From Eledone cirrhosa (taxonomy: Eukaryota), in contig OZ024743.1 in assembly GCA_964016885.1 (NCBI GenBank), positions 192,262,001-192,326,000 of the forward strand: DNA of 64,000 bases. Direction: 5' to 3'. Below are positions 62,051 through 64,000 of this stretch, in pieces (positions within the stretch are counted from its first letter, which is position 1; each line of letters opens with the position of its first letter). The notes beneath the pieces are model-generated. The model saw only the letters and a program-made list of their open reading frames with translations. It searched no databases and was not told the origin of the DNA. The position numbers and the translations under genes were made by a program.

Positions 62051-62434
62051 TAAACAAATAACAATCAAAGAGTGTTTAAGAACATTTAATTACTAACGAT
62101 CATTTCATCCAAGCACAAGACCAGAATCATCGGAGTATAAATCAAAAGTTAGAACACTGATAACTTTTTCAAAGAACATTCTGGGAATACTGCATATGGG
62201 AAGAAAGCAAAAATAATAGATATTAACATTGATATAAGAAAGGAAAGCAAGAAGCATATGAAAAGCATGGTCATATAAATATAATGCTGATTCTTAATTA
62301 TATTTATATGACCATGCTTTTCATATGCTTCTTGCTTTCCTTTCTTATATCAATGTTAATATCTATTATTTTTGCTTTCTTCCCATATGCAGTATTCCCA
62401 GAATGTTCTTTGAAAAAGTTATCAGTGTTCTAAC
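62051..62434 (-). mobile_element. Penelope-like terminal (pLTR) fragment with perfect 138-bp fold-back
   Basis: Arms 62148-62285 and 62297-62434 are exact reverse complements; hammerhead downstream on the minus strand; (TA)n flanks. Confidence 0.7.
62091..62137 (-). ncRNA. Minimal type I hammerhead ribozyme (Penelope-type)
   Basis: Minus strand tact-CCGATGA-ttctggtcttgtgcttggat-GAAA-tgatcg-TT-agta: stem I tact/agta, near-palindromic stem III. Confidence 0.65.
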
Positions 62435-62480
62435 GTATATACGTATATATATATTATAATATATATATATATATATATAT

Positions 62481-62639
62481 AACGAAGGAAATGTGGTAAG
62501 GAACCAGGTGGACCATAAAGCTCCAAAGTACTCAATACTTGGGGTAGTAGAGTGGGTAATAGGAACCAGTAAGACCCCGACGGCTGAGCTCAAGCCGTTT
62601 CGACGGCTTGAGCTCAGCCGTCGGGGTCTTACTGGTTCC

Positions 62640-62644
<5 letters not shown>
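62481..62644 (-). mobile_element. Second Penelope-like terminal fragment: 3' half of a hammerhead inside a perfect 42-bp hairpin
   Basis: Arms 62557-62598 and 62603-62644 with loop ttcg; minus strand reads cGAAAcggcttgagctcagccGTCgggg; (TA)n flanks. Confidence 0.65.
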
Positions 62645-62678
<34 letters not shown>

Positions 62679-62681
62679 CAT

Positions 62682-62713
<32 letters not shown>

Positions 62714-62929
62714 TAGAAAGTGAGATTTTTTTACAAAATGAAAAAAAAACGAGGTGTTCTACACGAGTGAAAGTATAAGGAAAAAAGATGAAATCGAAAA
62801 TGCAACTGGAGTCTTTTTTTTTAAATATATTTATGTGGTTCCTTTACAGGTTTCGCAGTTCTTGTTCTTTTCAAAAGTAGAATTGTGAGATGGAGGTTTT
62901 GTGGTTTTCTCGCATCTGGTTGATGTTCG

Positions 62930-64000
62930 AATGTTACTTCTGTTTTACATGGAAAAAAGTGGTTCGAAATGCTAGATTTTTAGAAAAGTAATTTGGTTGG
63001 TTGATGACTGTCATGTGAATAAGTATAATAAATTTCGCGCCCCAGTTCATGTTACAAAGTTCTTATTATATTTGCCTTCAAAAAAAAAGGGGGGGGGGGG
63101 GGGGCTCAGATTTTTTTTTCATATATGAGTGAAGTTTGGTTGGTTGATGCAGTTACGTGAATAAGCACATCAGCTTTCGTGCCAGTTTGTGTTTGAATTT
63201 CTTTTTACATAAAAAAGTGGCTCACAAAGGCTTTATTTATAAATGTAATTTGATTGGTTATAAATGAAATTATGACTGTCACGTGAACAAGTACATTAAA
63301 TTGCGCGCTGTATTTTGGAACTTTTTTGTAGCCATTTAGAGAATTGTGTGCCAAACAAAAGATAATGGTCAAGAACGGGATGGGGAGAATTGTTCTGGTT
63401 CAGGGATTATGGCTGATGTGCTGAAATGTAATTTGATTGGTTATAAATGAAATTATTACTGTCACGTGAATAAGTACATTAAATTTCGCGCCCGTATTTG
63501 GGAATTTCTTTTGTAGCCATTTAGAGAATTTTGTGCCAAACCAAAGATAATGGTCAAGAACGGGATGGGGAGAATTGTTCTGGTTCAGTGAGTATGGCGG
63601 ATGTGCTGGCGTGTCAAAATTCAGACTTTCTATTGAAATAAAGAAAGTAGAGATATGTATGTTTATTTGTGTGCTGGTGTGTAATTTCATTTATAACCAA
63701 TCAAATTACATTTATAAATAAAGCCTTCATGAGCCACTTTTTTTAAGTAAAAAGAAATTCAAACACAAACTGGCACGAAAGCTGACGTGACTGCATCAAC
63801 CAATCAAACTTCACTCATATATGAAAAATAAATCTGAGTCCCCCTTTTTTTGAAGGCAAATATAATAAGAACTTTGTAACGCGAACTGGCGCGAAATTTA
63901 TTATACTTATTCACATGACAGTCATCAACCAACCAAATTACTTTTCTAAAAATCTAGCATTTCGAGCCACTCTTTTCCATATAAAACAGAAGTAACATTC
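62930..64000. mobile_element. Large foldback element with modular TIRs, running off the window
   Basis: 62930-63272 is the reverse complement of ~63683-64000; internal tandem duplication 63241-63403 / 63424-63587. Confidence 0.85.

What the first reader, a model, noticed from the sequence alone, without database searches (positions are those of the whole stretch)
62481..62644. Second, unrelated hammerhead fragment folding back exactly at the catalytic GAAA
Seen: a perfect 42-bp stem with a ttcg loop. Read on the minus strand the loop is cGAAA, followed by stem III acggc...gccgt enclosing palindromic tgagctca, a GUC site and gggg (stem I 3' side). The CUGANGA half is replaced by the inverted copy. 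The architecture and orientation match the neighbouring cassette ((TA)n, unique 3' part, fold-back, (TA)n) but the sequence differs. Inference: two Penelope-type families used the same (TA)n and finished integration by cDNA snap-back, here helped by the ribozyme's own self-complementary stem III. This may be a direct footprint of the poorly understood PLE second-strand mechanism.
Basis: partly seen in the sequence, partly recalled or inferred. Interest (0 to 1): 0.72.

Follow-up and report, generated by a model that had tools for sequence, protein, structure and literature searches.

The report
Head-to-head stub of Penelope retrotransposon
This hairpin is one of roughly twenty thousand short, back-to-back stubs of a young Penelope-like jumping gene, and comparing the copies shows it was likely made by joining two separately primed DNA copies rather than by one copy folding back on itself, which bears on how these elements finish inserting.

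Summary
The 42-bp hairpin is real. It is a stub of a young Hydra-clade Penelope-like element (PLE): 3,543-bp unit, intact RT and GIY-YIG ORF. Its hammerhead core is the U3-A8 variant (UUGANAA), not CUGANGA. The family has two fixed 3' ends at (TA)n, with 21,662 and 19,181 exact matches, bracketing a 77-nt tail; 84 of 97 sampled insertions join one arm of each head to head. Joining at GAAA is a minor class (387 copies, about 2%), set by a native 6-bp inverted repeat. Snap-back is not supported: the loop sits on the tail-less arm in 14 of 30 such junctions (snap-back predicts 0), the tail-less arm is the longer one in 38 of 84, and in 6 of 84 the arms share no sequence. Best reading (0.7): both nicked strands prime a cDNA, both run off near the likely capped RNA start just upstream of GAAA, and they are joined. 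The layout is published, and this scan noted it before on other DNA. The family and the orientation test appear new.

The parts
62436..62481 (.). (TA)n target, left flank; shared with the neighbouring cassette
62482..62602 (-). Tail-bearing arm (A arm): element positions +1 to +121 (C of CGAAA = +1 = window 62602), ending at fixed 3' end A
   Evidence: 96.9% identical to a natural full-length unit; end A abuts TA in 21,662 exact matches
62482..62558 (-). 77-nt tail between the two fixed 3' ends (+45 to +121); in full-length elements the RNA continues from here into the ORF
62559..62578 (-). 3' strand of hammerhead stem I (GGGG onward); fixed end B lies at its base (+41 to +44, TAT shared with the target)
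   Evidence: predicted fold of a natural intact copy
62579..62581 (-). GUC triplet; predicted cleavage between 62579 and 62578 in an intact ribozyme (this stub lacks the first half of the core)
   Evidence: sequence, fold
62580..62598 (-). Hammerhead stem-loop III, 6 bp with palindromic loop
62598..62601 (-). GAAA half of the catalytic core; overlaps the 4-nt hairpin loop 62599-62602
62603..62608 (-). 6-bp junction microhomology: fits both the native stem II 3' strand (-5 to 0) of the A arm and the first six bases of the inverted arm
   Evidence: blastn of the natural unit extends to 62608; same junction shows a 6-nt overlap, row 68
62603..62644 (+). Tail-less inverted arm (B arm), element +5 to +46, ending at fixed end B
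   Evidence: end B abuts TA in 19,181 matches
62643..62713 (.). (TA)n target, right flank
62052..62434 (-). Neighbouring fold-back cassette of an unrelated, older family, likely also a Hydra-type PLE (context, not part of this insertion)

Best explanation
The feature is a dead 163-bp stub of a young Hydra-clade Penelope-like retrotransposon, made of two head-to-head arms that end at the family's two fixed 3' ends, and it was likely formed by two separately primed cDNAs being joined rather than by one cDNA snapping back. SHOWN: two fixed ends A (+121) and B (+41/44), each followed by TAT in the RNA and by (TA)n in the genome; one A arm plus one B arm per insertion as a rule; 5' ends piled at -8 to -20; either arm can be the longer or carry the loop. 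INFERRED: the element's protein nicks both strands of (TA)n; one nick primes reverse transcription at A and the other at B, on the same RNA or on RNAs from the same source; on the normal mRNA these sites lie near the 5' end, so both cDNAs run off at the capped start (mainly A at -16, some to -20); the two minus-strand 3' ends are then trimmed and joined bluntly, by microhomology or with short templated fillers, each serving as the other's second-strand primer or being filled in by host repair. In this copy they likely annealed through the native 6-bp inverted repeat around CGAA. Full-length copies would need uncleaved read-through RNA, because both start sites lie 3' of the ribozyme cut.
For: Ends: 21,662 A and 19,181 B exact matches, controls 0. 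Pairing: 84 of 97 position-ordered B ends have an A arm, 2 a B arm, 11 other; 30 of 30 GAAA junctions are A+B. Loop orientation among the first 30 of 387 GAAA junctions: 16 on the tail arm, 14 on the tail-less arm (binomial p = 0.86 against 50:50); snap-back of the A-primed cDNA gives only the first type. Arm lengths: B longer 38, A longer 25, equal within 1 nt 21, of 84; 6 of 84 share no sequence (row 81 dropped as an internal deletion). Zero-spacer palindromes at non-palindromic sites: 4 of 73 parsed junctions (rows 19, 37, 70, 77). In 3 of 5 long copies whose ORF arm ends at B, the inverted A arm is not nested in the upstream repeat (L107, L110, L120). Run-off: 60 of 84 B arms and 48 of 84 A arms end within -20 to -8; 8 and 7 pass -22. 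Young B arms leaving the element at -16 are followed by C 351, G 293, T 47; the C is not explained by the partner arm in 23 of 29 parsed, whereas most G are the partner's own letters; A arms starting at -16 behind a filler of 2 nt or more are preceded by G in 8 of 9. The only initiator-consensus match in -59 to +10 is at -16 (consensus recalled). In vitro, an anole PLE protein cuts and extends both strands, starts at two sites that bracket the tail, is modelled as a dimer, and prefers uncleaved RNA (PMC11167929).
Against: No RNA or biochemical data for this family. The two arms share subfamily letters in 56 of 60 insertions (about 0.30 expected by hand from haplotype frequencies); this is also what snap-back predicts, and needs the same RNA or subfamilies active at different times. 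Spacers between inverted repeats can flip after insertion, which would mimic the 16:14 and 38:25 symmetry. There is no single 5' end: 1,241 of 1,932 young B arms reaching -16 continue past it, and in the mixed-age sample the letter before -16 was C 11, G 10, A 3 in RNA sense, the C being partly a native variant. Only 15 of 30 A-anchored ends had a B arm within the 1.5 kb held; several are single-arm stubs. The anole study saw no difference in start site between strands, whereas the one-A-one-B rule here implies an asymmetry. That an extra C reflects copying of the cap is recalled knowledge; two paper searches found nothing usable.
Confidence: 0.7

Rival explanations
1. Snap-back (first reader; akin to the self-priming idea in PMC3846280): one cDNA primed at A folds back, copies itself as far as B, and the hairpin is unfolded. 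Later central flips and deletions scramble the junctions.
For: This copy alone fits it perfectly: 6-bp stem, 4-nt loop on the tail arm; the cDNA is predicted to form that hairpin. Arms share subfamily letters in 56 of 60. Published as a hypothesis for head-to-head palindromes. Long palindromes are known to rearrange centrally (recalled).
Against: Needs a flip in about half of all copies, including near-identical young ones (L071, L072, L080 against L063, L065, L083, L086, judged by eye). Needs one-sided deletions for the 6 non-overlapping pairs, and cannot directly give zero-spacer joints or an extra base on both arms (L273). Does not explain non-nested long copies.
Confidence: 0.15
2. Two cDNAs are primed, but they stop at -8 to -20 because the RT stalls at hammerhead stem II or a bound protein on a longer RNA, not because the RNA begins there.
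For: The stop zone coincides with the 3' strand of the predicted stem II and its apical hairpin; ends are spread over a dozen positions; 64% of young B arms reaching -16 go beyond it.
Against: Sharp edge near -20; extra C/G at -16 on both arm types; initiator match at -16.
Confidence: 0.1
3. The 163-bp unit is itself a mobile non-autonomous element (a master copy with this junction, MITE- or retrozyme-like), or an assembly fold-back artefact.
For: 387 copies share the exact junction.
Against: Those copies belong to several subfamily haplotypes and come in both loop orientations, so the junction arose repeatedly; other junctions differ copy by copy. An artefact would not stop at two fixed family-wide ends.
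Confidence: 0.05

Closest known systems
Hydra clade of C-terminal EN+ Penelope-like elements (Craig et al. 2021, PMC8557442), e.g. Hydra-1_Obim
   Same: Single RT-EN ORF; RW[K/R], DKT, CxCX5C linker, no CCHH, CxxC and CxH near the C terminus; (TA)n target; hammerhead near the 3' end.
   Different: A different family: its peptide and DNA motifs are absent from that paper's supplement, and the Hydra-1_Obim protein is similar but not the same by eye. Unit 3.5 kb against 'generally <3 kb'; U3-A8 core, a stem II domain of about 55 nt and a 6-bp stem III, against a compact CUGAAGA ribozyme; 77-nt tail against 30-40 bp.
PLE insertion unit: 5'-truncated copy, adjacent inverted copy, one-sided tail (PMC3846280, PMC8557442)
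   Same: Head-to-head arms, tail on one arm only, partial tandems.
   Different: Self-priming was proposed there; the junction statistics here favour two cDNAs. Most copies here are under 230 bp (74 of 84).
Anole Poseidon element PAc in vitro (Frangieh et al. 2024, PMC11167929)
   Same: Two RT start sites bracketing the tail, near the ORF start and 3' of the ribozyme; both strands cut and extended; uncleaved RNA used.
   Different: Different clade; that paper leaves second-strand synthesis open and reports no strand difference in start site, whereas copies here pair one A with one B.
U3-A8 hammerheads of Schistosoma Cercyon PLEs (Cervera and de la Pena 2014, PMC4209133)
   Same: Same core covariation; pairs of ribozymes on opposite strands 100-700 bp apart were noted.
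   Different: Those are minimal motifs without helix III; this one has a predicted 6-bp helix III.
LINE-1 twin priming (recalled, no call)
   Same: Both target strands prime cDNA; the result has an inversion.
   Different: In L1 the arms do not normally overlap and the second site is variable; here the second site is fixed, the arms usually duplicate the same 60 nt, and it is the rule, not the exception.

Membership tests
EN+ Penelope-like element | Single ORF with RT and GIY-YIG endonuclease linked to this end | tested here: met
   About 720 aa from the first Met, YRDD at 415, VIY/YIG at 658/673; ORF flanked by the same hammerhead end in 17 of 20 long loci by eye. Motifs read directly; Pfam and PDB gave no hit.
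EN+ Penelope-like element | pLTR / partial tandem organisation with an inverted 5'-truncated copy | tested here: met
   3,543-bp tandem units in L112/L113; inverted arms in most long copies.
EN+ Penelope-like element | One-sided tail of 30-40 bp | tested here: inconclusive
   A one-sided tail is present but is 77 nt.
EN+ Penelope-like element | Target-site duplication | not testable with these tools
   Hidden inside (TA)n.
Hydra clade | RWK motif, DKG changed to DKT, GxKF/Y not conserved | tested here: met
   RWR at 104, DKT at 184, no GxKF/Y.
Hydra clade | CxCX5C linker; CCHH absent; CxxC and CxH around the conserved E and N | tested here: met
   CxCX5C at 639, one Cys only between VIY and YIG, CxxC at 737, CxH at 765; 114 of 120 homologues keep CxCX5C.
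Hydra clade | (TA)n insertion preference | tested here: met
Hydra clade | Placement in the Hydra clade on an RT tree | not tested
   No reference proteins were held as usable sequences; likeness to supplement rows judged by eye only.
Neptune / Nematis clades | CX2-5CxxC linker and CCHH motif | tested here: not met
   Neither is found; my first guess of Neptune was dropped.
Type I hammerhead ribozyme (intact family copies) | Three stems around the core, with N3-N8 paired, GAAA and NUH site | tested here: met
   Unconstrained fold gives the three-way junction; U3-A8 in 29 of 32 intact copies. Rfam was run on the window only, which holds half the motif.
Type I hammerhead ribozyme (intact family copies) | Self-cleavage | not testable with these tools
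   Needs an in vitro assay.
Type I hammerhead ribozyme (this window copy) | First half of the core and stem II present | tested here: not met
   Replaced by the inverted arm.

The most novel reading that the evidence does not exclude
Penelope-like elements have no separate second-strand step: a dimer nicks both strands of (TA)n, starts one cDNA on each side of the tail (one at A, one at B), and joins the two minus strands head to head. The 20,000 stubs are strong-stop-like run-offs from the capped mRNA start, which lies inside the hammerhead, so that only read-through RNA carries a whole ribozyme. This would replace the published self-priming idea and explain the inverted copy and the one-sided tail in one step.
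Probability: 0.55. Interest if true: 0.75.

Novelty: new member of a known kind. Interest (0 to 1): 0.5.

Why it matters
How PLEs make their second strand, the inverted 5' copy and the one-sided tail is stated as open in PMC8557442 and PMC11167929. This family offers about 20,000 junctions and many intact, near-identical ORFs, so the question can be tested by counting and by a direct in vitro assay. The loop-orientation test at a recurrent junction separates snap-back from two-cDNA joining. The single window copy is an ordinary dead stub.

Tried and rejected
Rfam on the window: no hammerhead hit. Pfam on ORF pieces and on P0001, and PDB by sequence: no hits. Sequencing runs: no RNA holder listed, so the RNA start could not be mapped; contigs of 4 runs were too fragmented to span this locus, so there is no verdict from reads. 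Neptune clade: rejected on motifs. Stem III palindrome as the main fold point: 2 of 84. Ribozyme-cleaved RNA as a major template: few arms begin near +25 (rows at +24 and +26), so at most a minor class. Master-copy origin of the GAAA junction: rejected. The automatic loop-size column tolerates mismatches and was not used; zero-spacer cases were read. Prior-art searches: (0 papers); no listing or passage seen described two-cDNA joining for PLEs, but subscription journals are not covered. Left open: where the B arms that pass -16 end, and the letter before A arms at -16 in a wider set. Scan look-ups by sequence and by place returned nothing.

Full report
Coordinates. Element positions count from the C of CGAAA on the minus strand (+1 = window 62602; the base before it is 0). 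A is the 3' end at +121, B the 3' end at +41 to +44.

1. Observation. The fold is far beyond chance (z = -14.7, 0 of 200 shuffles). (TA)n flanks both sides. The neighbouring cassette is unrelated in sequence.

2. What it belongs to. A search of the own genome (3.0 Gb) gave 559 candidates, 40 scored, 30 fetched; most showed the same layout with different joints. Two copies ran further 5', one into the C-terminal end of an endonuclease. A protein search then gave the maximum 150 matches, many in open frames of 770-795 aa. I fetched 20 of the longest: they show a 3,543-bp unit, head-to-tail tandems, and the same hammerhead end on both sides of the ORF. The protein has the Hydra-clade motifs listed by Craig et al. 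and 659 relatives at E <= 0.001. It is not Hydra-1_Obim (by eye and by motif search). In intact copies the first half of the core is UUGANAA in 29 of 32, the U3-A8 covariant described for Schistosoma PLEs, and the region folds unconstrained into a three-way junction.

3. Two fixed ends. Exact patterns for end A and end B abutting TA match 21,662 and 19,181 times, controls 0. In the RNA both ends are followed by TAT, a 3-nt match to the target. I took the first 100 listed B ends on contig C1; 97 distinct ones were recovered. Of these 84 are joined head to head to an A arm, 2 to another B arm, and 11 are long, single or unresolved. 74 of the 84 are 230 bp or shorter. From the other side, 15 of 30 A ends had a B arm within the 1.5 kb held; the rest were long, single-arm stubs or, once, A with A.

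4. The joint at GAAA. The exact window junction occurs 387 times, about 2% of B ends (patterns differ in strictness), and in 1 of the 84 sampled. It sits on a native 6-bp inverted repeat: the stem II 3' strand (-5 to 0) against the stem III 5' strand (+5 to +10), with CGAA between. The 30 copies examined belong to several subfamily haplotypes, so the joint arose repeatedly.

5. Snap-back or two cDNAs. If the A-primed cDNA folds back, the loop must lie on the tail arm and the tail-less arm must be nested in it. Found: loop on the tail arm 16, on the tail-less arm 14, of the first 30 of 387 (the script's two 'B|B' labels, L084 and L089, were assigned from their printed ends). The tail-less arm is longer in 38, shorter in 25, equal in 21 of 84; in 6 the arms share nothing (rows 9, 20, 31, 59, 75, 86; row 81 dropped). 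Four of 73 parsed joints are zero-spacer palindromes at sites that are not palindromic in the element. Three of 5 long copies with the ORF on the B arm have a non-nested A arm. These fit two cDNAs. Against this: arms agree in subfamily letters in 56 of 60 (60 of 72 had enough overlap), which snap-back also predicts, and a later flip of the spacer could produce the symmetry, though not the non-overlapping arms; near-identical young copies already show both orientations (by eye).

6. Why the stubs are short. 60 of 84 B arms and 48 of 84 A arms end within -20 to -8; only 8 and 7 pass -22. Among young B arms that reach -16 exactly, the next letter is the native one in 1,241, C in 351, G in 293, T in 47. 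In 30 loci of each non-native class (29 parsed for C), the C was extra in 23 of 29, most G came from the partner arm, and A arms starting at -16 behind a filler of 2 nt or more had G in front in 8 of 9 (single-letter fillers were left out because the search pattern forced them). An extra C in cDNA is what copying a cap gives (recalled; two searches found no usable paper). The only initiator-consensus match nearby is at -16 (consensus recalled). So the mRNA likely starts at about -16 to -20, inside stem II, and both start sites lie within 140 nt of its 5' end. Counter-evidence: 64% pass -16, ends are spread, and the mixed-age tally at -16 was C 11, G 10, A 3. No RNA run was listed, so this step is inferred.

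7. Mechanism. Shown: fixed ends, one-of-each pairing, symmetric joints, a stop zone. Inferred: double nick, two cDNAs, run-off at the cap, joining by blunt ligation, microhomology or short templated fillers. This matches the anole protein, which cuts and extends both strands from two start sites that bracket the tail. Both sites lie 3' of the predicted cut at +24/+25, so full-length copies would need uncleaved read-through RNA.

8. The neighbour. Its family (771 candidates) has a UUGACAA ... GAAA motif in 10 of 19 loci, two recurring 3' ends at (TA)n, and Hydra-type endonuclease homology upstream on the same strand in 1 of 19 (L257, E 1.7e-8). It is likely a second, older Hydra-type family; this is weaker evidence.

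9. What is known. The head-to-head layout, tail and (TA)n preference are published. Self-priming was proposed for it. Seen of each paper: PMC11167929, parts 1-2 of 4 of the text; PMC8557442, passages and searched supplement passages; PMC4209133, part 1 of 4 and passages; PMC3846280 and PMC2377424, passages; bioRxiv 10.64898/2026.07.22.740005, abstract and outline. Supplements of the other papers were not read and may bear on novelty. Searches for a two-cDNA model showed none in the listings. Earlier scan notes reached similar readings on other DNA; my two-cDNA and cap readings were written down before I saw them, while the Hydra assignment came from them and was then tested.

10. Verdict. Real; a new family of a known kind; this copy is a dead stub. 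Interest 0.5, for the population-level handle on an open mechanism.

Noticed in passing
window 62052-62434; L245-L263: The neighbouring family also seems to use a U3-A8 core and two recurring 3' ends about 95 nt apart; its outer end carries a short TTACCCAC-like motif like the ones beside ends A and B of this family. The window copy's second arm stops at a non-standard place.
   Followed up: partly
element -5 to +10 (window 62593-62608): The native 6-bp repeat lets GAAA fold into an alternative hairpin; it is the predicted fold of an RNA starting at -16, and could act as an off-switch for the ribozyme.
   Followed up: partly
L112 and L113 (G000:C1:91470500-91490300): At least four near-identical head-to-tail units with open ORFs, ending in a tandem array of about 20 copies of a 55-bp ORF piece; a candidate source locus or a record of RT stuttering.
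   Followed up: no
L238, L228: Stubs made of short tandem run-offs: repeated units from -19 through the tail and about 115 nt into the ORF side, suggesting repeated template jumps.
   Followed up: no
L108, L110, L118, L121: Fresh stubs pile up in the (TA)n left at the ends of earlier insertions, giving stacks like the one in the window.
   Followed up: no
L326-L351 (G class): A recurrent joint with the B arm ending at -16 and the A arm starting at -10 (11 of 30 G-class loci) has no obvious microhomology; unexplained.
   Followed up: no
window 62929-64000: Another inverted-repeat element follows: arms of at least 113 bp, 97% complementary, 846 nt apart, with internal 185-bp repeats; it runs off the window end.
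   Followed up: no
runs X5, X6: Contigs from two further organisms hold part of this end (83-116 nt, 2-4 differences), so close relatives of the family exist in other species.
   Followed up: no
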